Shown piece after piece: positions 11,771-61,783 of a stretch of DNA of 64,000 bases (within the stretch, counting starts at the first letter, position 1; every line of letters starts with the position of its first letter). A model generated the notes under the pieces. That model did no database searches, was not told where the DNA came from, and worked only from the letters and a program-made list of their open reading frames with translations. Made by a program: the position numbers and the translations under genes. Source of the stretch: Escherichia coli (GTDB lineage Bacteria; Pseudomonadota; Gammaproteobacteria; Enterobacterales; Enterobacteriaceae); the NCBI RefSeq assembly GCF_022846255.1, contig NZ_AP025682.1; one strand, written 5' to 3'.

Positions 11771-11802
11771 AAAAAAAACCTGCCATCGCTGGCAGGTTTT
11801 TT
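11771..11802. terminator. Bidirectional rho-independent terminator between convergent ompL and typA
   Basis: Hairpin CCTGCCA-TCGC-TGGCAGG flanked by A-run on the left and T-run on the right. Confidence 0.6.
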
Positions 11803-13643: not shown

Positions 13644-13794
13644 AACTTTGCCTCAGGCATTAGAAATAGCGCGTTATTGTACACGGATTAATCGCACTAC
13701 AAAACAGGATCACAAACATCCTCCGCAAACAAGTATTGCAGAGTCCCTTTGTGATCGCTTTCACGGAGCATAAAAAGGGTTATCCAAAGGTCAT

Positions 13795-29874: not shown

Positions 29875-29943
29875 AGTAATGCTCCTTACTCTTGAGACAG
29901 ACACGTTAGCAGGGTCAATCCCACAATAAAAGAGGCGATATCG

Positions 29944-30528
29944 GTGAATCTGATGACGACGATAACAGGCGTTGTGCTGGCGGGCGGTAAAGCCAGACGA
30001 ATGGGCGGCGTAGATAAAGGATTGCTTGAATTAAACGGCAAACCATTATGGCAGCATGTCGCTGACGCGCTTATGACGCAGCTTTCTCACGTCGTGGTTA
30101 ATGCTAATCGTCATCAGGAAATCTATCAGGTAAGCGGTCTGAAAGTGATTGAAGATTCACTGGCGGATTACCCTGGTCCTCTGGCAGGAATGCTTTCAGT
30201 AATGCAGCAGGAAGCGGGTGAGTGGTTTTTGTTTTGCCCGTGCGATACGCCTTACATTCCCCATGATTTAGCCGCCCGGCTTACTCATCAGCGCAAAGAT
30301 GCGCCTGTCGTGTGGGTCCACGACGGTGAACGCGATCACCCGACTATTGCTCTGGTAAACCGCGCAATTGAGCCTTTATTACTGGAATATCTGCAAGCAG
30401 GAGAACGCCGGGTTATGGCATTTATGCGTCTGGCTGGCGGTCATGCGGTTGATTTCAGCGATCGTAAAGAGGCATTTATAAACGTGAATACGCCAGAGGA
30501 GCTTGCCCGATGGCAGGAAAAACGATGA
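29944..30528 (+). CDS. mobA: molybdenum cofactor guanylyltransferase
   Basis: 194 aa [28 protein letters not shown]. Confidence 0.92.
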
Positions 30529-52829: not shown

Positions 52830-54257
52830 CTAGCGCGACTGCTGATTATATTCATCATCGCGTTGATAAGCTTCATCATTCGGCTGCTCCGGAACCGACC
52901 GAAGTCGATACTCTTCATCCTGGCTCACCGCCTGTTCAGCCAAATCCGGATTAATCTCGCGTTTAATTTCTACCCCTAAACCGCGAAACGCTTCTGCCTG
53001 CGCCAGCACATTTCCGCGACCTGAAGAGAGTTTTTTCATTGCCTGGCGATAGTTATCCTGCGCTTTGTCGAGACTTTGACCAATCGCGGACATGTCATCG
53101 ACAAACAAACGCATCTTGTCGTACAGCTTGCTGGCACGATCGGCGATTTGCTGGGCGTTGCGGCTTTGATGCTCATAACGCCACAGGTTGGCGATAGTGC
53201 GCAGCGCCACCAGCAGCGTAGTCGGGCTAACCAGCATGATATTGTTTTTCAACGCTTCGGTGATCAGCTCCGGCTGACGGTCAAGCGCCAGTAAAAAAGC
53301 GGGTTCAACGGGAATAAACATCAGCACGTAATCCAGAGTTCGCAGCCCCGGCAGCTGTTGATAATCTTTGCGTCCCAGCAAACGGATATGGTTACGTACC
53401 GACGCGATATGTTCCTGTAGCGCGCTTTCACGGGAGTAGTCATCTTCGGCGTTGAAATAGCGTTCATAGGCGACCAGCGTCATTTTGGCGTCGATCACCA
53501 CATCTTTTCCCTGCGGCAACCGCACGATGACATCCGGCTGCATCCGCGAGCGGGCGTCATTTTCGATGCTGACCTGGGTTTCATATTCATACCCTTCACG
53601 CAGACCGGAAGCCTCCAGCACCCGCGTCAATACTACCTCGCCCCAGTTGCCCTGGGTTTTATTGTCGCCTTTCAGCGCACGCGTCAGGTTGATCGCTTCC
53701 TGGGCCATCTGGGCGTTGAGTTGCTGGAGGTTGCGGATTTCGTGAGTCAGGGTATGACGTTCTTGGGCTTCTTTACCAAAGCTGTCCTGGACCTGACGGC
53801 GGAAACCATCCAGTTGTTCACGCAACGGCGACAAAAGACTGTTCAGACTCTGGCGATTTTGCTCATCAACCCGACGATTACTGTGTTCAAAAATACGGTT
53901 GGCAAGGTTTTCAAATTGCTCACTGAGGCGCTGTTCGCTGTTGATCATCTGGCGAATTTTATCGTCAGCGTGTTGCTGTGCGGCTTCCATCCGCGTGGTC
54001 ACTTCACGCAGATCGGCCTCCAGCGAGGTGTTAATACTTTGCAGGCTGCGCACTTCGTTATTGAGCAATTCACACTCTGCGCGCCAGTGCTCGCTTTGGG
54101 TAATTTGTTGTTTTGCCGCGCTTAACTCCGCGACCATCTCTTCACGTTCAGCTAATTGCTCGGCTTTTTGCTGCGCATGTTGATAACTGGCAAACAGCCA
54201 GCCAATTGCCACACCCACCAATGCAATAACTGCGTAAACCATGATTGAGAAATCCAC
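52830..54257 (-). CDS. rmuC: DNA recombination protein RmuC
   Basis: 475 aa; N-terminal TM, long coiled-coil, C-terminal RmuC domain. Confidence 0.92.
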   Translation of the reverse strand: MDFSIMVYAVIALVGVAIGWLFASYQHAQQKAEQLAEREEMVAELSAAKQQITQSEHWRAECELLNNEVRSLQSINTSLEADLREVTTRMEAAQQHADDKIRQMINSEQRLSEQFENLANRIFEHSNRRVDEQNRQSLNSLLSPLREQLDGFRRQVQDSFGKEAQERHTLTHEIRNLQQLNAQMAQEAINLTRALKGDNKTQGNWGEVVLTRVLEASGLREGYEYETQVSIENDARSRMQPDVIVRLPQGKDVVIDAKMTLVAYERYFNAEDDYSRESALQEHIASVRNHIRLLGRKDYQQLPGLRTLDYVLMFIPVEPAFLLALDRQPELITEALKNNIMLVSPTTLLVALRTIANLWRYEHQSRNAQQIADRASKLYDKMRLFVDDMSAIGQSLDKAQDNYRQAMKKLSSGRGNVLAQAEAFRGLGVEIKREINPDLAEQAVSQDEEYRLRSVPEQPNDEAYQRDDEYNQQSR

Positions 54258-54376
54258 AACGCCTCCTGACGCAACAACTTACCCGCACAAAATAGAATTG
54301 TGCTGTACAAACGTCCAGTTTGAAAGAAGTTTCCTGCGAGGCGCTACGCAAAACGATCGTTAATTTTCATTATTTT

Positions 54377-54412
54377 ATCCCACAATATGAGATGGAGTTT
54401 ATATTGTGGGAT
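54377..54412. promoter_or_regulatory. Perfect 12 bp inverted repeat (ATCCCACAATAT-N12-ATATTGTGGGAT): candidate operator for the downstream IclR-family regulator
   Basis: Arms 54377-54388 and 54401-54412 are exact reverse complements; located ~60 bp upstream of the regulator ATG in an AT-rich divergent promoter region. Confidence 0.5.
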
Positions 54413-54473
54413 ATATCACCTTTTCCCCACGTCATTATGTGGAACACTTCAGCAATATCATCAGGAGAAACGT

Positions 54474-55241
54474 ATGGCAGAAACCTCTTCAACCACCGCA
54501 GGCGCACAAACGTTATTACGTGGACTGGCGGTTCTTAATGCTGTTTATAACGGCTGCCATGACCTAAAAAGTATCGGCGAGTTCACCGGCACGACCCGGA
54601 GCACAACCCATCGTTTAGTCACCGTTCTGGTGGAACAACGCTACCTGCGCCATGTCCCAACGCAGGGCTACCAACTGGGTGCCAAACTGATCGAATTTGG
54701 TGCCAGAGCACTGGAAAGCACCTCGCTGTACGAAATTGCCCAGCCCGTTTTGCAACGCCTTGCCCGTTACACCCTGGACACCGTGCATCTGGGGATCGTT
54801 GAAGGCGACGAAGTGCTGTATCTGGAGAAGATCAACAGTCAGCGCGGGCTGGAAATGCGCTCACGCCCAGGCCATCGCATGCCACTGGCAATCACCGGCA
54901 TCGGCAAGGCATTGATCCTCAACCGAACAGAAGAAGAGTGGCGCACGCTGTTTAAGACCTGTGGTGATGAAACAAAACTGGGCACATTTATTCAGAACAT
55001 GCGTCGTTATGCCGCCAGTGGTTTTGCTTTTGATCTGGAAGAGAACGAGCCGACTATCCGTTGCGTTGCAGCGCCGGTTTACAACGCCCGGGATGAAATT
55101 GTGGCGGCTATTTCTGTCGCCAGTACCACCACGTATATGTCGCTGGCGCGTCTGGAAGAACTGGCACCTTACGTCAAATCCTGTGCAGAAGAGATATCCG
55201 CTGAACTGGGCTGGGGTAAGCACGTCCGCAAAGATAAATAA
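54474..55241 (+). CDS. IclR-family transcriptional regulator (KdgR-like)
   Basis: Start taken at ATG 54474 (RBS AGGAG 8 bp upstream): MAETSSTTAGAQTLLRGLAVLNAVYNGCHDLKSIGEFTGTTRSTTHRLVTVL...; N-terminal wHTH plus C-terminal effector domain; ~255 aa. Confidence 0.8.
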   Translation: MAETSSTTAGAQTLLRGLAVLNAVYNGCHDLKSIGEFTGTTRSTTHRLVTVLVEQRYLRHVPTQGYQLGAKLIEFGARALESTSLYEIAQPVLQRLARYTLDTVHLGIVEGDEVLYLEKINSQRGLEMRSRPGHRMPLAITGIGKALILNRTEEEWRTLFKTCGDETKLGTFIQNMRRYAASGFAFDLEENEPTIRCVAAPVYNARDEIVAAISVASTTTYMSLARLEELAPYVKSCAEEISAELGWGKHVRKDK

Positions 55242-55264
55242 ACCATGATTAAAGGAAACGACTA

Positions 55265-56269
55265 ATGCCGGGAGCACCCTCATTTATTGCCCTGGACTGG
55301 GGAACGTCATCGCTTCGGGCATGGCGTTTTGGCGAATCACCAAATCCACAAGAAAAACGTGAATTCCCCTGGGGGATCATGAAATTACCCTCCCAGGCAG
55401 CAACACGTGAGGACGCTTTCCACGATACGTTTTTACGTGTCTGCGGCGACTGGCTGGCACAAACCCCATGCCCGGTACTGGCTTGCGGCATGCTCGGCAG
55501 TGCGCAAGGGTGGCAATCAGCAGCTTATTTACCTTGCCCGGTCACTCTCGAGGGTCTGGCGAAGCAGTTGACGCCTGTTATCCACCAGCAGCAGACAATG
55601 CTGCATATCATTCCTGGCGTGATTAAAGAAGGTGAAATGCCCGAAGTGATGCGTGGCGAAGAAACACAAATCTTCGGTGCTATCTCGATGGAACCGGCCC
55701 TGCAAAACGCGATCCATCAGGGTATGCCAGTGCTGATAGGCTTACCCGGCACACATGCGAAATGGGCAGTAGTTGAAAACAACACCATTACCGATTTCCG
55801 AACCTTTATGACGGGCGAGTTATTTGATGTTTTATCCCGCCATTCGATTCTCGGTGCCACCATGCATCCTGGAGATGAACCGCACTGGGATGCCTTCACC
55901 CACGGGCTGACAGCAGCACAAGAGCATCATCAGACCGGATTATTATCGACGCTGTTTTCGACCCGTTCGCGCCTGCTGACCAGTAATCTTACGTCGTCCT
56001 CGCAGGGGGATTACCTTTCCGGATTACTGATAGGCCATGAATTATGTGGTCTGGCATCCAGTTTGCTACGTGATTTACCCGCCACAACACCGATCGCCTT
56101 AATCGGTAGCGCAAATCTGAACAGCCGCTATTCACAAGCATTCAGCCACGTTTTTCCCGACAGACAGATACACGCCATTCCTAATGCCACTGAACAGGGA
56201 TTATGGCGAATCGCCCACGCTGCCGGGTTACTGTCCACCAACGCCAGGGAATGTACCCATGCCATTTAA
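55265..56269 (+). CDS. 2-dehydro-3-deoxygalactonokinase family protein (DgoK paralog)
   Basis: 334 aa; motifs shared with remembered E. coli DgoK: IALDWGTSSLRAW, MRGEETQIFGA, LPGTHAKW, DFRTFMTGELFDVL, DYLSGLLIGHE. Confidence 0.8.
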   Translation: MPGAPSFIALDWGTSSLRAWRFGESPNPQEKREFPWGIMKLPSQAATREDAFHDTFLRVCGDWLAQTPCPVLACGMLGSAQGWQSAAYLPCPVTLEGLAKQLTPVIHQQQTMLHIIPGVIKEGEMPEVMRGEETQIFGAISMEPALQNAIHQGMPVLIGLPGTHAKWAVVENNTITDFRTFMTGELFDVLSRHSILGATMHPGDEPHWDAFTHGLTAAQEHHQTGLLSTLFSTRSRLLTSNLTSSSQGDYLSGLLIGHELCGLASSLLRDLPATTPIALIGSANLNSRYSQAFSHVFPDRQIHAIPNATEQGLWRIAHAAGLLSTNARECTHAI

Positions 56270-56888
56270 TACGCTTTTGCAAAAAACCGGGTTAGTCGCC
56301 ATTTTACGCGGCGTGAAACCGGATGAGATTGTCGCCATCGGTGAAAAACTGTACGCCGCCGGATTCCGCCTGATTGAGATTCCTATGAACTCGCCGGAGG
56401 CGTTGCAAAGTATCAGTATACTGCGCGACGCCCTGCCTAAGGACTGCCTGGTCGGAGCCGGAACTGTGCTTTCGGTAGAGCAGGTGGTTGCGGTTAAAGA
56501 GGCTGGGGGCCAGATTATCGTGATGCCGCATTGCGATACTGCGGTGATCCGTCGCGCCCGTGCGCTGGGTATGTATTGTGCGCCTGGCGTCGCCACGCCC
56601 ACCGAAGCCTTTGCTGCCATTGAACATGGTGCTAATGCCATCAAGCTGTTCCCGGCTGAACAAATTACGCCAGAAGTTACCAAAGCCTGGCGTGCGGTTA
56701 TTCCACAATCCGTTCCGATGTTACCGGTTGGCGGTATCACACCGGAAACCATGGCGCGTTATCTGAGCCACGGCGCAAACGGCTTTGGCCTCGGTTCTGC
56801 GCTATATCGCCCCGGCATGACGCCAGAGCAAGTCTATGAAAATGCAGTACTGTTTATGAACGCATGGAACAATTTAAATAGCAACTAA
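56259..56888 (+). CDS. 2-dehydro-3-deoxy-6-phosphogalactonate (KDPGal/KDPG) aldolase family protein (DgoA paralog)
   Basis: Start at ATG 56259 overlapping kinase stop (ATGCCATTTAA); MPFNTLLQKTGLVAILRGVKPDEIVAIGEKLYAAGFRLIEIPMNSPEALQS...GAGTVL...; strong similarity to remembered DgoA. Confidence 0.8.
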   Translation: MPFNTLLQKTGLVAILRGVKPDEIVAIGEKLYAAGFRLIEIPMNSPEALQSISILRDALPKDCLVGAGTVLSVEQVVAVKEAGGQIIVMPHCDTAVIRRARALGMYCAPGVATPTEAFAAIEHGANAIKLFPAEQITPEVTKAWRAVIPQSVPMLPVGGITPETMARYLSHGANGFGLGSALYRPGMTPEQVYENAVLFMNAWNNLNSN

Positions 56889-56912
56889 CTGATAAATAAG
56901 GATATAAAAGCA

Positions 56913-57887
56913 ATGATAAAACATCTTACCTTACCGAAAAAAATGGCTGCAATGGTACTTCTTGCAGGCGCTGCCCTCAGCATTGCGCCTGTACAGGCAG
57001 CCTCCTGGCCAACCAAACAGATCGAGTTAGTCGTTCCCTACGCTGCCGGAGGCGGTACGGATCTGGTTGCCCGTGCCTTTGCTGATGCCGCCAAAAACCA
57101 TTTACCCGTCAGCATCGGGGTTATCAATAAACCTGGCGGAGGCGGTGCTATCGGCCTGAGTGAAATCGCCGCTGCCCGCCCTAACGGTTACAAAATTGGT
57201 TTAGGCACGGTTGAACTGACCACCCTTCCCAGCCTCGGAATGGTGCGTTTTAAAACCAGCGACTTTAAACCCATTGCCCGTCTGAATGCGGATCCGGCTG
57301 CTATCACAGTCCGTGCCGATGCGCCGTGGAATAGCTATGAAGAATTTATGGCTTACTCCAAAGCGAATCCCGGAAAAGTACGCATTGGTAACTCAGGCAC
57401 CGGAGCTATCTGGCATCTGGCGGCAGCTGCACTGGAAGACAAAACGGGCACAAAGTTTTCTCATGTCCCGTATGACGGCGCAGCCCCTGCCATTACAGGC
57501 CTGTTAGGCGGGCACATTGAAGCGGTTTCCGTAAGCCCAGGAGAAGTTATCAACCATGTGAATGGCGGCAAGCTGAAGACACTGGTAGTGATGGCGGATG
57601 AGCGAATGAAAACCATGCCTGACGTCCCGACGTTAAAAGAGAAAGGCGTTGATCTCTCCATCGGCACCTGGCGCGGCCTGATTGTGTCGCAAAAAACGCC
57701 GCAGGATGTGGTGGATGTTCTGGCAAAGGCAGCAAAAGAGACGGCTGAAGAGCCTGCATTCCAGGATGCACTGCAAAAGTTGAATCTCAACTATGCATGG
57801 CTTGACGCTGCCAGCTTCCAGACCCAAATCAGCGAACAGGAAAAGTACTTTGACGAGTTGCTGACTCGCCTGGGCCTGAAAAAATAA
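56913..57887 (+). CDS. tripartite tricarboxylate transporter (TTT) periplasmic substrate-binding protein, TctC/Bug family
   Basis: 324 aa with signal peptide ...AALSIAPVQAASWP; Bug-family motifs VPYAAGGGTD, KPGGGGAIG. Confidence 0.8.
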   Translation: MIKHLTLPKKMAAMVLLAGAALSIAPVQAASWPTKQIELVVPYAAGGGTDLVARAFADAAKNHLPVSIGVINKPGGGGAIGLSEIAAARPNGYKIGLGTVELTTLPSLGMVRFKTSDFKPIARLNADPAAITVRADAPWNSYEEFMAYSKANPGKVRIGNSGTGAIWHLAAAALEDKTGTKFSHVPYDGAAPAITGLLGGHIEAVSVSPGEVINHVNGGKLKTLVVMADERMKTMPDVPTLKEKGVDLSIGTWRGLIVSQKTPQDVVDVLAKAAKETAEEPAFQDALQKLNLNYAWLDAASFQTQISEQEKYFDELLTRLGLKK

Positions 57888-57900
57888 ACCTGAGGTACGG

Positions 57901-58410
57901 TTGATGAACACAAAACAGTCTGTTGCTCAACTCGCCGTACCGCACCGCAAGCGCCTTTCATCAACGATGGTGGTGGCGCTGTTACTTTGTGTGGTTGCTG
58001 GCGCGGTGATGATTAATGCCGCTGATTTTCCAGCAACTGCCATTGAAACGGATCCCGGTGCAAGTGCCTTCCCTACCTTCTATGCCTGTGCCCTGATTGT
58101 GCTCGCTGTCTTGCTGGTGATACGCGATCTTTTGCAGGCAAAACCAGCCTCTTGCGCCAACGCACAGGAAAAACCGGCATTCAGGAAAACAGCAACAGGA
58201 ATTGCGGCAACCGCGTTTTATATTGTGGCGATGAGCTACTGCGGTTATCTCATTACTACTCCTGTTTTCCTCATCGTCATTATGACGTTGATGGGCTACA
58301 GGCGATGGGTACTCACACCGGGTATTGCGCTGCTGTTAACGGCAATCCTCTGGTTGCTGTTTGTCGAAGCGTTACAGGTGCCATTGCCTGTCGGCACATT
58401 TTTCGAATAA
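57901..58410 (+). CDS. TTT small membrane subunit (TctB-like)
   Basis: 169 aa, 4 predicted TM helices, positioned between TctC-like and TctA-like genes. Confidence 0.7.
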   Translation: MMNTKQSVAQLAVPHRKRLSSTMVVALLLCVVAGAVMINAADFPATAIETDPGASAFPTFYACALIVLAVLLVIRDLLQAKPASCANAQEKPAFRKTATGIAATAFYIVAMSYCGYLITTPVFLIVIMTLMGYRRWVLTPGIALLLTAILWLLFVEALQVPLPVGTFFE

Positions 58411-58422
58411 CAGGGGCCAGCA

Positions 58423-59913
58423 ATGTTTGAAAGTGAACTTTTAACTCAGGGTTTTTCGACATTACTCAATAATCCTCAGGCGCTGCTGTTTGCCACTTTT
58501 GGGGTGATGCTGGGTATTGTGATTGGCGCTTTGCCTGGTCTGACAGCGACCATGGGTGTGGCGATTTTGCTGCCTTTCACCTACGGCATGGAGCCTGTTT
58601 CTGGATTGTTGATGATTTGCGGCGTCTTTTTTGGTGGCGTCTACGGTGGTTCTATCACCGCAATTTTGCTCAAAATTCCCGGAACGCCTGCCGCCGCAGC
58701 CACCGCTATTGATGGTTATGAGCTGACGAAACAGGGAAAAGCAGGGCTGGCATTGAGTGCCGCCACGTTCTCTTCCTTTAGTGGCGGAACGCTCAGCATT
58801 ATCGTGCTGATGTTTCTCTCTCCGGTACTTGCCAGTTGGGCGCTGAAATTTAGTGCCTCGGAGTCCTTCGCCCTGGCAACCTTCGGACTGAGCATTATTG
58901 CCAGTATTTCCGGTGAGTCGCTGATTAAGGGGCTGATTGCCGGGGTTGGCGGATTGCTGATCGCAACGATAGGCCTTGATCCAATGGGCGGTTTTCCACG
59001 GTTTACAGGTGGATTTGTGGAGCTGATGAATGTGCCATTTATCCCGGTGATGATTGGTTTATTTGCTGCTTCAGAAGCATTCCGCTCTATGGAGCAAAAC
59101 CAGCAAATTCGTCGGGGCGCGAAGGTGGCTATCGGCAGTCTGTTACTGCCCTGGCAAACACTACGCCGCATCGCATTAACCATTTTGCGCTCATCAGGAT
59201 TAGGGGTTTTTATCGGCATGATCCCCGGTGCGGGGGCGGATATTGCAGCTTTTGTTGCCTATAACGAAACTCGTCGTTTCAGTAAGACACCAGAAAACTT
59301 TGGTAAGGGTGAAATTAAAGCTGTGGCCTCCTGTGAGGCAGGCGCGAATGGCTGCACCGGTGGCGCATTGTTACCTATGCTGACGCTGGGGATCCCTGGC
59401 GATGCGGTAACCGCCATCATGCTGGGCGCGTTAACGTTACAGGGAATGCAACCAGGCCCGCTGATGTTTACCGACCACGGCGATATGGTTTATACACTGT
59501 TTGTCGGCATGATCTTTTGTTACTTCATGCTGCTAGTTCTTGGACTGCTCTCTTTGAAAGTCATCGGTAACGTGGTGAAGATCCCCGGCAATATTCTCAC
59601 ACCGATGATCCTCGCACTTTGTGTGGTCGGGACTTATGCGTTGAACAATAGCCTTTTTGATGTTGGCATTATGCTGATTGCAGGCGTGGTGGGCTATTTC
59701 ATGCAGAAAGGAGGATATCCGGCATCACCCGTAGTGCTGGCATTGATTATGGGGCCAATGGCGGAAAGTAATTTTCGCCGTGCGCTGTCGCTTTCTGGTG
59801 GGTCACTCGACTTTCTGTATACCCGACCGATCACTCTGGCATTGCTAACTCTGGCAGCCTTTACGCTACTGACGCCAATAATCCGCAAAATAATGCGTTT
59901 ACGGCGTCAGTAA
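58423..59913 (+). CDS. TTT large permease subunit (TctA-like)
   Basis: 496 aa polytopic membrane protein with duplicated-domain architecture typical of TctA. Confidence 0.8.
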   Translation: MFESELLTQGFSTLLNNPQALLFATFGVMLGIVIGALPGLTATMGVAILLPFTYGMEPVSGLLMICGVFFGGVYGGSITAILLKIPGTPAAAATAIDGYELTKQGKAGLALSAATFSSFSGGTLSIIVLMFLSPVLASWALKFSASESFALATFGLSIIASISGESLIKGLIAGVGGLLIATIGLDPMGGFPRFTGGFVELMNVPFIPVMIGLFAASEAFRSMEQNQQIRRGAKVAIGSLLLPWQTLRRIALTILRSSGLGVFIGMIPGAGADIAAFVAYNETRRFSKTPENFGKGEIKAVASCEAGANGCTGGALLPMLTLGIPGDAVTAIMLGALTLQGMQPGPLMFTDHGDMVYTLFVGMIFCYFMLLVLGLLSLKVIGNVVKIPGNILTPMILALCVVGTYALNNSLFDVGIMLIAGVVGYFMQKGGYPASPVVLALIMGPMAESNFRRALSLSGGSLDFLYTRPITLALLTLAAFTLLTPIIRKIMRLRRQ

Positions 59914-59920
59914 CTGATAT

Positions 59921-59947
59921 CGCTCCCCGAAGTTGGGGAGCGTTTTT
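59921..59947 (+). terminator. Rho-independent terminator after the tctA-like gene
   Basis: Hairpin GCTCCCCGAAGTTGGGGAGC followed by GTTTTTTTATTT; lies in the 34 bp gap before the convergent udp stop. Confidence 0.6.
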
Positions 59948-60712
59948 TTATTTCAGCAGACGACGCGCCGCTTCCACCACGATTTTCACCGCATGGCTTT
60001 CGGTTTGTTTCATCGTCTCAGCATTCGGGATCTCTTGCTGGGTGCGGTTAACGATAACCCCCGCTACCATACCGGCACGCAGGCCCTGACTTGCACACAT
60101 GGTCAGCAGGGTTGCAGATTCCATTTCATAGTTCATTACGCCCATCGCCTGCCACTCTTCCATAGAACCTTTAAAGTGACGAACTACGCGACCAGAGTAA
60201 GTATCGTAACGTTCCTGACCAGGGTAGAAGGTATCAGAAGAAGCTGTCACGCCAACGTGAGTCGTCGCGCCAATGGATTTCGCAGCTTCAACCAGCGCAG
60301 TCGTACATTCGAAATCAGCGACAGCCGGGAATTCCAGCGGTGCGAAGTGCAGGCTCGCACCATCCAGACGAACAGACGCCGTGGTAACCAGGACATCGCC
60401 AACATTAATATGCGGCTGAATAGCGCCCGTTGTGCCGATACGCAGGAAGGTGCGAATGCCCAGCTGTGCCAGCTCTTCAACAGCAATAGAGGTAGACGGG
60501 CCGCCGATACCGGTAGAGCAGACGATAACAGGTTTACCATCCAGCTCTGCACGCCAGGTGGTGAATTCGCGATGAGATGCCAGCTTAACCGGCTTATCCA
60601 TCAGCGCGGCGATCTTTTCCACACGATCCGGGTCGCCAGGGACGATGGCAAGCGTAGCCCCTTGTAAATCGTTTTTAGTGAGGCCGAGATGAAAAACATC
60701 AGACTTGGACAT
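59948..60712 (-). CDS. udp: uridine phosphorylase
   Basis: Start taken at [44 protein letters not shown]; PNP/UDP family. Confidence 0.95.
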
Positions 60713-60973
60713 ATACAACTCCTCTGTGAATCGGTTTAGTCAGAAGAAGCAAAAAGACACTTTACCGAAGGGTTTAACATTTTTTCGTGATACTCATCAC
60801 CATGACGAAAATGCGTTGCATAAATTTACCCGCCAAAAGTGATGCAAATCACATAAATCACTCTTCATTCTGCAGGACTGCATAAAAGATGAGCCGATTC
60901 AGGCAATGTGATTTGTTGCATGCTGACTATAGTTAACATTGCGCAACATTTTTATAAGGGTACGGAGAATACC

Positions 60974-61783
60974 ATGGCAACAACACAACAATCTGGATTT
61001 GCACCTGCTGCATCGCCTCTCGCTTCGACCATCGTTCAGACTCCGGACGACGCGATTGTGGCGGGCTTCACCTCTATCCCTTCACAAGGGGATAACATGC
61101 CTGCTTACCATGCCAGACCAAAGCAAAGCGATGGCCCACTGCCAGTGGTCATTGTAGTGCAGGAAATTTTTGGCGTGCATGAACATATCCGCGATATTTG
61201 TCGCCGTCTGGCGCTGGAGGGGTATCTGGCTATCGCACCTGAACTTTACTTCCGCGAAGGCGATCCGAATGATTTTGCCGATATCCCTACGCTGCTTAGC
61301 GGTCTGGTAGCAAAAGTGCCTGACTCGCAGGTGCTGGCCGATCTCGATCATGTCGCCAGTTGGGCTTCCCGCAACGGCGGCGATGTTCATCGTTTAATGA
61401 TCACCGGATTCTGCTGGGGTGGACGTATCACCTGGCTGTATGCCGCGCATAATCCACAGCTAAAAGCCGCAGTGGCGTGGTACGGCAAACTGACGGGCGA
61501 CAAGTCGCTGAATTCACCGAAACAACCTGTTGATATCGCAACCGATCTTAACGCGCCGGTTCTCGGCTTATATGGTGGTCAGGATAACAGCATTCCGCAA
61601 GAGAGTGTGGAAACGATGCGCCAGGCGTTGCGGGCAGCAAACGCGAAAGCAGAGATTATCGTGTACCCGGATGCAGGGCATGCGTTCAACGCCGATTATC
61701 GTCCGAGCTATCATGCCGAGTCTGCGAAAGACGGCTGGCAGCGAATGTTGGAATGGTTTACACAGTATGGTGTTAAAAAGTAA
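60974..61783 (+). CDS. ysgA: dienelactone hydrolase family protein
   Basis: Start at ATG 60974 (RBS GGAG): MATTQQSGFAPAASPLASTIVQTPDD...; alpha/beta hydrolase with GFCWGG nucleophile elbow. Confidence 0.85.
   Translation: MATTQQSGFAPAASPLASTIVQTPDDAIVAGFTSIPSQGDNMPAYHARPKQSDGPLPVVIVVQEIFGVHEHIRDICRRLALEGYLAIAPELYFREGDPNDFADIPTLLSGLVAKVPDSQVLADLDHVASWASRNGGDVHRLMITGFCWGGRITWLYAAHNPQLKAAVAWYGKLTGDKSLNSPKQPVDIATDLNAPVLGLYGGQDNSIPQESVETMRQALRAANAKAEIIVYPDAGHAFNADYRPSYHAESAKDGWQRMLEWFTQYGVKK

What the first reader, a model, noticed from the sequence alone, without database searches (positions are those of the whole stretch)
54377..54412. Perfect 12 bp palindrome with 12 bp spacer upstream of the IclR-family regulator gene
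ATCCCACAATAT-N12-ATATTGTGGGAT is an exact inverted repeat in the promoter region of the first gene of the island. Length and dyad symmetry fit a dimeric or tetrameric IclR-type operator. Because the regulator is the first gene of the operon, this would give autoregulated, effector-responsive control of the whole module, and the site could be used to find further regulon members elsewhere in the genome.
Basis: seen in the sequence. Interest (0 to 1): 0.5.

Follow-up and report, generated by a model that had tools for sequence, protein, structure and literature searches.

The report
Operator of an IclR-type sugar-acid regulator
The palindrome is real and is most likely the DNA site where the neighbouring IclR-family regulator binds to control its own six-gene sugar-acid uptake and breakdown operon, which is an ordinary kind of bacterial switch found here for an unstudied regulator.

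Summary
The inverted repeat exists, with 13-nt arms (54376-54388 / 54401-54413, 12-nt gap). A repeat this long is expected 0.005 times per shuffled window. It lies 23 bp inside the left edge of a 5.6-kb islet (iclR, dgoK-like, dgoA-like, tctCBA) between rmuC and udp, carried by about 27% of complete E. coli genomes.

The conserved unit is not 12-N12-12. It is two tandem 17-bp boxes (ATCyCA-N5-TGrGAT) with centres 19-22 bp apart, found upstream of orthologous regulators in seven other genera and about 68 Burkholderiaceae genomes. The E. coli repeat is the outer half of box O1 (54377-54393) plus the outer half of O2 (54396-54412).

A matrix built without any Escherichia site ranks O1 and O2 first and second in the 64-kb window. 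This matches published IclR-family tandem sites read as tetramer binding.

The right arm also forms the upstream half of a conserved CRP-like site (54402-54423), placed as in a class II promoter. In Burkholderiaceae the same half-site carries the -35 hexamer.

Best reading: an autoregulated repressor operator that blocks CRP or RNA polymerase. Arm substitutions in natural alleles are not compensated, which argues against a hairpin. No binding experiment exists. I rate it a new member of a known kind, of modest interest.

The parts
54376..54388 (.). Left arm of the perfect inverted repeat (TATCCCACAATAT). It is the promoter-distal half of box O1.
54401..54413 (.). Right arm of the inverted repeat (ATATTGTGGGATA). 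It is the promoter-proximal half of box O2 and overlaps the CRP-like site.
54377..54393 (.). Box O1, ATCCCA-CAATA-TGAGAT, a 17-bp imperfect palindrome and predicted full dimer site of the IclR-type regulator.
   Evidence: Best hit in the whole window (20.9 bits; the maximum over 50 shuffles was 17.1) for a matrix built only from non-Escherichia sites. Aligns with ATCCCATATATAGGGAT and similar boxes in other genera.
54396..54412 (.). Box O2, AGTTTATATTGTGGGAT. Its proximal half is strong and its distal half is degenerate. Its centre is 19 bp from that of O1.
   Evidence: Second-best hit in the window (14.1 bits). Fully invariant among six Escherichia alleles. Tandem spacing of 19-22 bp in 77 of 79 loci.
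54402..54423 (.). CRP-like 22-mer TATTGTGGGATATATCACCTTT (core TGTGG-N6-TCACC, centre 54412.5). It overlaps O2 by 8 bp, counted from the TGTG.
   Evidence: Matches the CRP consensus at 15/22 positions. The core TGTG-N7-TCAC occurs only 4 times in the window, one of them in the udp promoter region. It is the only match in each of the roughly 8.7-kb loci L005, L006 and L007 and the 6.75-kb locus L083, always just downstream of O2.
54440..54448 (+). Putative extended -10 element (TGg AACACT). It predicts a transcription start near 54454-54455, which puts the CRP centre at -41.5 or -42.5.
   Evidence: Inference. An nAnnnT hexamer sits at this exact distance from the CRP-like centre in 7 sequences from 5 genera. 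The start site has not been mapped, and the generic sigma-70 scan finds no consensus -35/-10 pair on this strand.
54474..55241 (+). IclR-family regulator gene (255 aa), first gene of the islet.
   Evidence: PGAP annotation. Homologues carry Pfam PF09339 and PF01614. It is not an equivalog of any named NCBIfam regulator.
55265..59913 (+). Rest of the predicted operon: dgoK-like kinase 55265-56269, dgoA-like aldolase 56259-56888, tctC 56913-57887, tctB 57904-58410, tctA 58423-59913.
   Evidence: Gaps between genes are 24 bp or less, and no internal site scores above 9 bits.
59921..59949 (.). GC-rich hairpin followed by a T run, shared by the ends of tctA and udp. It marks the right edge of the islet.
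   Evidence: Read from the sequence; I did not run the terminator scan on this region.
54353..54354 (.). Left junction of the islet. Sequence shared with islet-free E. coli ends here, 23 bp before the palindrome.

Best explanation
The palindrome is the outer part of a composite operator for the IclR-family regulator encoded immediately downstream. The operator is two tandem 17-bp boxes, O1 (54377-54393) and O2 (54396-54412), with consensus ATCyCA-N5-TGrGAT. Their centres are 19 bp apart, about two helical turns, so two dimers (a tetramer) would sit on one face of the DNA. The operator lies at about -43 to -79 from a predicted class II CRP-dependent promoter, and its promoter-proximal half (TTGTGGGAT) supplies the TGTG of the CRP site. 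The bound regulator would therefore exclude CRP and the RNA polymerase alpha subunit and keep the six-gene operon off, its own gene included. A pathway metabolite (inferred: D-galactonate or 2-keto-3-deoxygalactonate) would release it, and cAMP-CRP would then activate transcription. What is shown here: the repeat, its non-random nature, conservation of the boxes, their spacing and their link to the regulator gene, and the conserved CRP-like site. What is inferred: binding by this protein, tetramer stoichiometry, the sign of regulation (repression), the start site, and the effector.
For: The repeat is real and unlikely by chance. Box pairs lie upstream of orthologous regulators in 7 other genera, with conserved iclR-dgoK-dgoA linkage. 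In the cross-genus alignment, invariant columns cluster in the two boxes. A matrix built without Escherichia sites ranks O1 first and O2 second in the 64-kb window. A matrix built from Enterobacterales only puts its top hit upstream of the regulator gene in 61 of 69 betaproteobacterial loci, against 8% expected from length alone. Published comparative work defines 17-18-bp IclR group-1 palindromes and tandem sites 18-22 nt apart in 94 orthologous groups, read as tetramer binding. Its supplement lists TCcCAataTATGAGA-type sites for IclR regulators with a similar xRATAHRL recognition helix (PMC8222616). The orthologues' recognition helix RSTTHRL is nearly invariant. Within Escherichia, variation concentrates between the boxes, and the two arm variants are not compensated in the other arm. 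For repression: in 68 of 71 Burkholderiaceae loci the proximal half of O2 contains a TTGnnn hexamer followed, 17-18 bp later, by TACAAT or TAAAAT, so the operator overlaps -35. In E. coli, O2 overlaps the CRP core by 8 bp. For a single autoregulated operon: tight gene spacing, no other good site in the islet, and a terminator after tctA.
Against: There is no experimental binding, start-site or expression data, and no paper in the searched library characterises this regulator. I first defined the boxes by eye; the leave-out matrix tests reduce that circularity but do not remove it. Related genomes are not independent samples. O2 scores only 14.1 bits, the same as one unrelated site at 29918 and within the range of shuffle maxima. 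In enterics the operator lies upstream of the -35 region, a position also used by IclR-family activators. The best NCBIfam match is BhcR and is far below its cut-off, so homology does not settle the sign of regulation. Three loci with a different gene order (L008, L009, L084) show no such boxes directly upstream of the regulator gene.
Confidence: 0.76

Rival explanations
1. The regulator binds these boxes but acts as an activator or co-activator with CRP, as MhpR, PobR and PcaU do from upstream sites. It would recruit or stabilise CRP and RNA polymerase when its effector is present.
For: In Enterobacterales the boxes lie upstream of the CRP and -35 region, at about -43 to -79 in E. coli and about -53 to -90 in other genera, a position typical of activators. 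The closest named family by score is BhcR; that BhcR is an activator-type IclR regulator is my recollection and was not checked here. The E. coli promoter lacks a recognisable -35, so it needs activation.
Against: The conserved CRP-like site already accounts for activation. In E. coli, O2 and the CRP core share 8 bp, which favours mutual exclusion. In 68 of 71 Burkholderiaceae loci the operator overlaps the -35 hexamer of a near-consensus promoter that should not need an activator. From general knowledge, the characterised sugar-acid IclR regulators (KdgR, YiaJ, AllR, IclR) are repressors.
Confidence: 0.17
2. The repeat is not the site of the adjacent regulator. It would instead be bound by CRP alone or by another global factor, or be a by-product of the AT-rich promoter.
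For: The right arm is part of a good CRP-like site. The region is AT-rich.
Against: CRP sites are 22 bp with a 6-bp spacer, and the left arm has no partner TCAC. The boxes follow the regulator gene into GC-rich betaproteobacteria, where no CRP-like site accompanies them. The box shape fits IclR-family group-1 motifs.
Confidence: 0.04
3. The repeat works as a nucleic-acid hairpin (an RNA attenuator or terminator, or a DNA cruciform), or is a leftover of how the islet was inserted (a terminal inverted repeat or attachment site).
For: As single-stranded DNA it folds to -10.5 kcal/mol, z = -5.1 against shuffles. It sits only 23 bp inside the islet border.
Against: The stem is AT-rich and has no T run, and the terminator scan does not call it. 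It lies upstream of the predicted start site. Natural arm variants are not compensated. Long-range arm complementarity drops to 5-8 of 12 outside Escherichia, while the box half-sites persist. No Rfam family matches (best 20 bits against gathering thresholds of 67-69). No copy of the half-site lies at the other end of the islet, and the PGAP annotation shows no integrase or transposase. The same boxes occur in other genera and in other genomic contexts.
Confidence: 0.03

Closest known systems
IclR-family group-1 tandem operators (comparative reconstruction by Suvorova and Gelfand 2021, PMC8222616)
   Same: A 17-bp palindromic box with an AT-rich centre. O1 fits GKTYCRY-W3-RYGRAMC at 10 of 14 specified positions, and its deviations are symmetric. 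Two boxes sit 19 bp apart centre to centre; the published range is 18-22, mostly 19-21, and is read as tetramer binding. The site lies upstream of the regulator's own operon. The supplement lists very similar TCyCA-N5-TGrGA sites for other IclR regulators.
   Different: This orthologous group (recognition helix RSTTHRL) was not found in the stored parts of that paper's supplements, which were cut. Positions 1 and 3 of the half-site are A and C rather than G and T. In E. coli the inner half of O2 is degenerate, so the outer halves form an unusually long perfect repeat.
KdgR and CRP at Dickeya/Erwinia pectinolysis promoters, where an IclR-family repressor antagonises CRP (recalled from memory: Nasser et al. 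1997, not read here)
   Same: An IclR-family sugar-acid repressor whose operator adjoins or overlaps a CRP site, so that repressor and activator oppose each other. The expected inducer is a 2-keto-3-deoxy sugar acid.
   Different: The regulator here scores 129 bits against the KdgR model, below its cut-off of 275, so it is not KdgR. KdgR boxes are AT-rich (AATRAAA...), not TCCCA/TGGGA. Antagonism here is inferred from geometry only.
E. coli DgoR (GntR/FadR family), repressor of the core dgoRKADT D-galactonate operon (PMC12288454, seen in the search listing only)
   Same: The regulator is the first gene of an operon that encodes DgoK and DgoA activities, and the logic is autoregulated and effector-released.
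   Different: It belongs to a different protein family and so recognises a different operator. The islet uses a tripartite tricarboxylate transporter instead of DgoT and has no dehydratase gene.
PcaU / PobR / TtgV extended IclR operators
   Same: More than one dimer site, with a total footprint of about 36-42 bp bound by a tetramer.
   Different: PcaU and PobR use three 10-bp repeats with GTNCG-type half-sites and act as activators (PMC8222616). TtgV matches the regulator only weakly in sequence (E = 7e-11).

Membership tests
IclR-family operator (group-1 motif, tandem arrangement) | Lies in the upstream region of an IclR-family regulator gene or its target operon | tested here: met
   It lies 61 bp upstream of the IclR-family gene at 54474-55241, the first gene of the islet.
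IclR-family operator (group-1 motif, tandem arrangement) | 17-18-bp palindrome of the form GKTYCRY-W3-4-RYGRAMC | tested here: met
   O1, ATCCCAC-AAT-ATGAGAT, fits 10 of 14 specified positions plus the W3 centre, and its deviations are symmetric (my count against the consensus quoted). Near-identical published sites such as CTcCcCAataTATGAGAct appear. O2 fits in its proximal half only.
IclR-family operator (group-1 motif, tandem arrangement) | Tandem sites with centres 18-22 nt apart | tested here: met
   The spacing is 19 bp in E. coli. Across 79 loci the counts were: 19 bp in 6, 20 bp in 35, 21 bp in 12, 22 bp in 24 and 18 bp in 2.
IclR-family operator (group-1 motif, tandem arrangement) | Motif is conserved upstream of orthologous regulators (phylogenetic footprint) | tested here: met
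IclR-family operator (group-1 motif, tandem arrangement) | Specific binding by the cognate protein, released by an effector | not testable with these tools
   This needs EMSA or footprinting. No publication was found.
Class II CRP-dependent promoter | 22-bp site resembling AAATGTGATCTAGATCACATTT | tested here: met
   15 of 22 positions match, with core TGTGG-N6-TCACC. The core pattern is rare in the window (4 matches) and is conserved at the same place in 5 genera.
Class II CRP-dependent promoter | Site centred near -41.5 from the transcription start | tested here: inconclusive
   The start site is not mapped. A -10-like hexamer (AACACT, AAAGAT, CAGAAT or CAAAAT) lies at exactly the -41.5 or -42.5 distance in 7 sequences.
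Class II CRP-dependent promoter | Transcription depends on cAMP-CRP | not testable with these tools
   Needs a crp mutant or in-vitro transcription.
Intrinsic terminator or structured RNA | GC-rich stem followed by a U run, or covarying pairs, or a match to a known RNA family | tested here: not met
   The terminator scan does not call it. Arm substitutions are not compensated. No Rfam match reaches threshold.
Mobile-element terminal repeat or attachment site | A second copy at the other end of the element, and a recombinase or transposase gene | tested here: not met
   No half-site lies near 59900-59950. The six islet genes are a regulator, two enzymes and three transporter subunits.

The most novel reading that the evidence does not exclude
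In the Escherichia lineage, a deletion of about 9-10 bp (one helical turn) has fused the promoter-proximal half-site of the repressor with the upstream half-site of CRP. The same TTGTGGGAT would then be read by both proteins, giving a strict either/or switch. In Burkholderiaceae the equivalent half-site doubles as the -35 hexamer. One operator half-site would thus have been co-opted into three different promoter architectures, and the perfect 13-bp symmetry would be a by-product of that dual constraint.
Probability: 0.3. Interest if true: 0.45.

Novelty: new member of a known kind. Interest (0 to 1): 0.3.

Why it matters
The islet between rmuC and udp is carried by about 27% of complete E. coli genomes, including isolates from human infections and the laboratory strain BL21. 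The one paper found that mentions it describes it only as six ORFs of unknown function (PMC3349570). A defined operator, a predicted CRP-dependent promoter and a candidate effector class make the islet easy to test by reporter fusions, EMSA and growth on D-galactonate or 2-keto-3-deoxy sugar acids. They also give a matrix for regulon searches. The regulator and operator pair could serve as a sugar-acid biosensor part. As biology it is an expected kind of switch, not a new principle.

Tried and rejected
1. Chance: rejected by the shuffle counts and by conservation.

2. Hairpin, terminator or RNA element: rejected. The terminator scan makes no call here, arm variants are uncompensated, and there is no Rfam match. 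The fold z-score only restates that the sequence is a palindrome.

3. Insertion scar or terminal repeat of the islet: rejected. No second copy exists, the islet has no recombinase gene, and the same boxes occur in other genera at the same rmuC-proximal position and in betaproteobacteria in other contexts.

4. Alternative start codon at 54387 inside the palindrome (the 284-aa ORF): rejected using the PGAP start, the ribosome-binding site and the orthologue N-termini.

5. Further operator copies inside the islet or elsewhere in the window: none convincing. The only other hit, 14.1 bits at 29918-29934, is within the range of shuffle maxima.

6. A simple CCC-N7-GGG pattern search missed the Burkholderiaceae sites, as did a strict-palindrome search. 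The matrix scan found them.

7. Literature on this regulator, or on an IclR-type dgo regulator: nothing found. The supplements of PMC8222616 are truncated, and the regulator's recognition helix was not found in them.

8. A genome-wide half-site search was not possible. Only the 64-kb window is held, and BLAST E-values cannot resolve 13-17-bp matches in the 28-Gb collection.

Full report
**Observation**

The sequence ATCCCACAATAT-N12-ATATTGTGGGAT is present at 54377-54412. The repeat finder extends it to 13-nt arms (54376-54388 and 54401-54413), 100% complementary, with 12 nt between them. In 200 dinucleotide-preserving shuffles of the window, perfect inverted repeats with a spacer of 30 nt or less were expected 0.11 times for arms of at least 12 nt and 0.005 times for arms of at least 13 nt. 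The repeat is therefore real and not a chance event.

**Context**

The window is Escherichia coli and is 100% identical to strain FDAARGOS_1284 over the queried 2.2 kb. The repeat lies between rmuC (minus strand, ends at 54257) and an IclR-family regulator gene (54474-55241). That gene is followed by a 2-dehydro-3-deoxygalactonokinase gene, a 2-dehydro-3-deoxy-6-phosphogalactonate aldolase gene and tctC, tctB and tctA. Next come a hairpin with a T run and the convergent udp gene.

Islet-free E. coli genomes share sequence only up to 54353. In place of the islet they carry about 45 bp that includes a short GC-rich palindrome just past the udp stop codon, which I read as the udp terminator. The islet is present in 1456 of 5426 complete genomes, including BL21 derivatives. 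A 2012 paper on avian pathogenic strain APEC O1 mentions it only as a roughly 5-kb islet of six ORFs of unknown function between udp and rmuC (PMC3349570).

The palindrome begins 23 bp inside the islet and ends 61 bp before the regulator's start codon. That start is supported by PGAP, by an AGGAG at 54463-54467 and by orthologue N-termini. The ATG at 54387 inside the palindrome is not the start.

**What the comparison with other genomes shows**

Orthologous regulators (54-72% identical, with a nearly invariant RSTTHRL recognition helix) were located in 80 species genomes and four further contigs. The iclR-dgoK-dgoA linkage is conserved throughout.

Upstream of the regulator gene, the following genera all carry two adjacent 17-bp boxes of the form ATCyCA-N5-TGrGAT, flanked by A and T runs:
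- Buttiauxella, Phytobacter, Klebsiella spallanzanii, Pseudocitrobacter and Brenneria (Enterobacterales).
- Xylophilus and Achromobacter (betaproteobacteria).

Examples are ATCCCATATATAGGGAT-aa-TGTTTATATTATGGGAT in Buttiauxella and ATCTCAATATGTAGACT-ttc-ATCCCATATATAGGGAA in Xylophilus.

In E. coli the boxes are O1, ATCCCACAATATGAGAT (54377-54393), and O2, AGTTTATATTGTGGGAT (54396-54412). About 68 Burkholderiaceae genomes have the same layout, with strong outer halves and weaker inner halves. Start-to-start spacing is 19-22 bp in 77 of 79 loci.

**Tests that limit circularity**

- A matrix built only from non-Escherichia boxes ranks O1 first in the 64-kb window (20.9 bits; the maximum over 50 shuffles was 17.1). 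O2 ranks second at 14.1 bits.
- A matrix built only from Enterobacterales boxes places its top hit 100-760 bp upstream of the regulator match in 61 of 69 betaproteobacterial loci. Length alone predicts 8%. Related genomes are not independent, so the binomial P value is only indicative.
- In the cross-genus alignment the invariant columns cluster in the two boxes.

**Variation within Escherichia**

Variation within Escherichia concentrates between the boxes and upstream of O1. Two natural arm variants exist: ATCCCATAATAT and ATCCCACATTAT. The first belongs to an allele whose 120-bp promoter is at least 99% matched in 559 genomes. Neither variant is compensated in the other arm.

Outside Escherichia the 12-nt arm complementarity falls to 5-8 of 12, while the half-sites persist. 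This is the pattern expected for protein half-sites, not for a selected hairpin. The terminator scan does not call the repeat, and Rfam gives only hits far below threshold.

**Comparison with what is known**

A family-wide comparative study (PMC8222616) describes IclR group-1 motifs as GKTYCRY-W3-4-RYGRAMC. It reports that regulators of 94 orthologous groups use tandem palindromes with centres 18-22 nt apart, mainly 19-21, and interprets this as tetramer binding on one face of the DNA. O1 fits that consensus at 10 of 14 specified positions, with symmetric deviations. The study's supplement lists sites such as CTcCcCAataTATGAGAct for IclR regulators with a similar recognition helix.

The regulator itself is not an equivalog of any named NCBIfam family. 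It scores 142 bits against BhcR (cut-off 350) and 129 bits against KdgR (cut-off 275). Solved structures match it only distantly. I found no publication on it.

**Promoter geometry (inferred)**

The right arm overlaps a CRP-like 22-mer, TATTGTGGGATATATCACCTTT (54402-54423), which matches the consensus at 15 of 22 positions. The core TGTG-N7-TCAC occurs only four times in the window. One of those is at 60839-60853 in the udp promoter region, a promoter I recall as CRP-regulated.

In Buttiauxella, Phytobacter, Klebsiella and Pseudocitrobacter, the only match in each locus lies just downstream of O2. In all seven enteric sequences, an nAnnnT hexamer sits at exactly the distance expected for a class II promoter with CRP at -41.5 or -42.5. 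In E. coli this hexamer is AACACT at 54443-54448, preceded by TGg. The distance from the CRP centre to the ATG is constant at 60.5-62.5 bp.

Relative to the other genera, Escherichia lacks about 9 bp between O2 and the CRP core. As a result, O2 overlaps the CRP core by 8 bp instead of ending 1-2 bp before it.

In 68 of 71 Burkholderiaceae loci, the proximal half of O2 contains TTGGAG, TTGAAT or TTGGTG. A TACAAT or TAAAAT follows 17-18 bp later, so the operator overlaps the -35 hexamer of a near-consensus promoter.

**Mechanism**

The best-supported reading is an autoregulated repressor operator. A tetramer bound on O1 and O2 would block CRP and RNA polymerase alpha-subunit access in enterics, or the -35 hexamer in Burkholderiaceae. 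A pathway metabolite would release it.

The operon looks like a single transcription unit. Gene gaps are 24 bp or less, no other site in the islet scores above 9 bits, and a terminator follows tctA. The regulator would therefore control its own level.

I put about 0.76 on the operator-plus-repressor reading. About 0.17 goes to the rival in which the same protein binds here but acts as an activator or co-activator, so binding by this regulator, in either role, comes to about 0.9. Other factors and structural or relic explanations are each below 0.05.

**Verdict**

- The unit is two 17-bp boxes rather than a 12-N12-12 palindrome.
- The perfect symmetry is specific to the lineage and to one allele.
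- The right arm is shared with a CRP-like site.
- No further regulon member is evident in this window.

This is a new member of a well-known kind of element. It has practical value for working out what an unstudied accessory islet of E. coli does.

Noticed in passing
window 54413-54421, compared with L005:3932-3947, L006, L007 and L083: Escherichia promoters lack about 9 bp that separate box O2 from the CRP-like core in Buttiauxella, Phytobacter, Klebsiella and Pseudocitrobacter. The loss moves the operator one helical turn closer and makes O2 and the CRP site share TGTGGGAT.
   Followed up: partly
L010-L082 (Burkholderiaceae), e.g. L050:3520-3580: In 68 of 71 loci the promoter-proximal operator half contains a TTGnnn hexamer followed, 17-18 bp later, by TACAAT or TAAAAT. 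In L050 a roughly 250-nt untranslated leader then precedes the regulator gene, which is longer at its N-terminus (about 315 aa); other loci appear similar.
   Followed up: partly
window 29918-29934: ATCCCACAATAAAAGAG lies just upstream of the ORF at 29944, which I take to be mobA from gene order (not verified). It matches the half-site with one mismatch and scores 14.1 bits with the box matrix. There is no partner box, and the score is within the range of shuffle maxima, so it is probably chance.
   Followed up: partly
window 54354-59950; The rmuC-udp islet is present in about 27% of complete E. coli genomes, including BL21 derivatives, and once on a record typed as a plasmid. It occupies the same rmuC-proximal position in Klebsiella spallanzanii, Buttiauxella and Pseudocitrobacter, which suggests an old locus lost from K-12-like strains rather than a recent insertion.
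   Followed up: partly
window 59940-59960: With the islet present, udp ends ...cagcagaaataa (one extra codon) and its stop codon overlaps the T run of the terminator shared with tctA. Islet-free strains have a different hairpin after udp.
   Followed up: no
window 60839-60853 and 13750-13764: Two further exact matches to the CRP core TGTG-N7-TCAC. The first lies in the udp promoter region, a promoter I recall as controlled by CRP and CytR. The second was not examined.
   Followed up: no
L008, L009 and L084 (Citrobacter amalonaticus, Lelliottia, Serratia odorifera); protein P0012: A paralogous cluster has the order dgoA-tctC-tctB-tctA-iclR. Its regulator is 61-62% identical and last in the cluster, with no TCCCA/TGGGA boxes directly upstream. 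P0012 is also reported from some E. coli. The start of that operon lay outside the fetched DNA.
   Followed up: no
window 61074-61094 (L002:12475-12495), inside ysgA: A 21-bp near-palindrome, CTATCCCTTCACAAGGGGATA (CCC-N7-GGG), lies within the ysgA coding region. It is also present in an islet-free strain (L001) and is probably coincidental.
   Followed up: no
L004 (E. coli SCPM-O-B-8794): This is a divergent islet allele whose regulator match is shorter (651 nt; related protein P0005 is 217 aa), apparently with an internal deletion. Its operator differs at one arm position (ATCCCACATTAT).
   Followed up: no
window, centres near 11787, 13818, 20681 and 27868: Four other perfect inverted repeats of at least 12 nt with short spacers. 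I did not examine them; they may be terminators.
   Followed up: no
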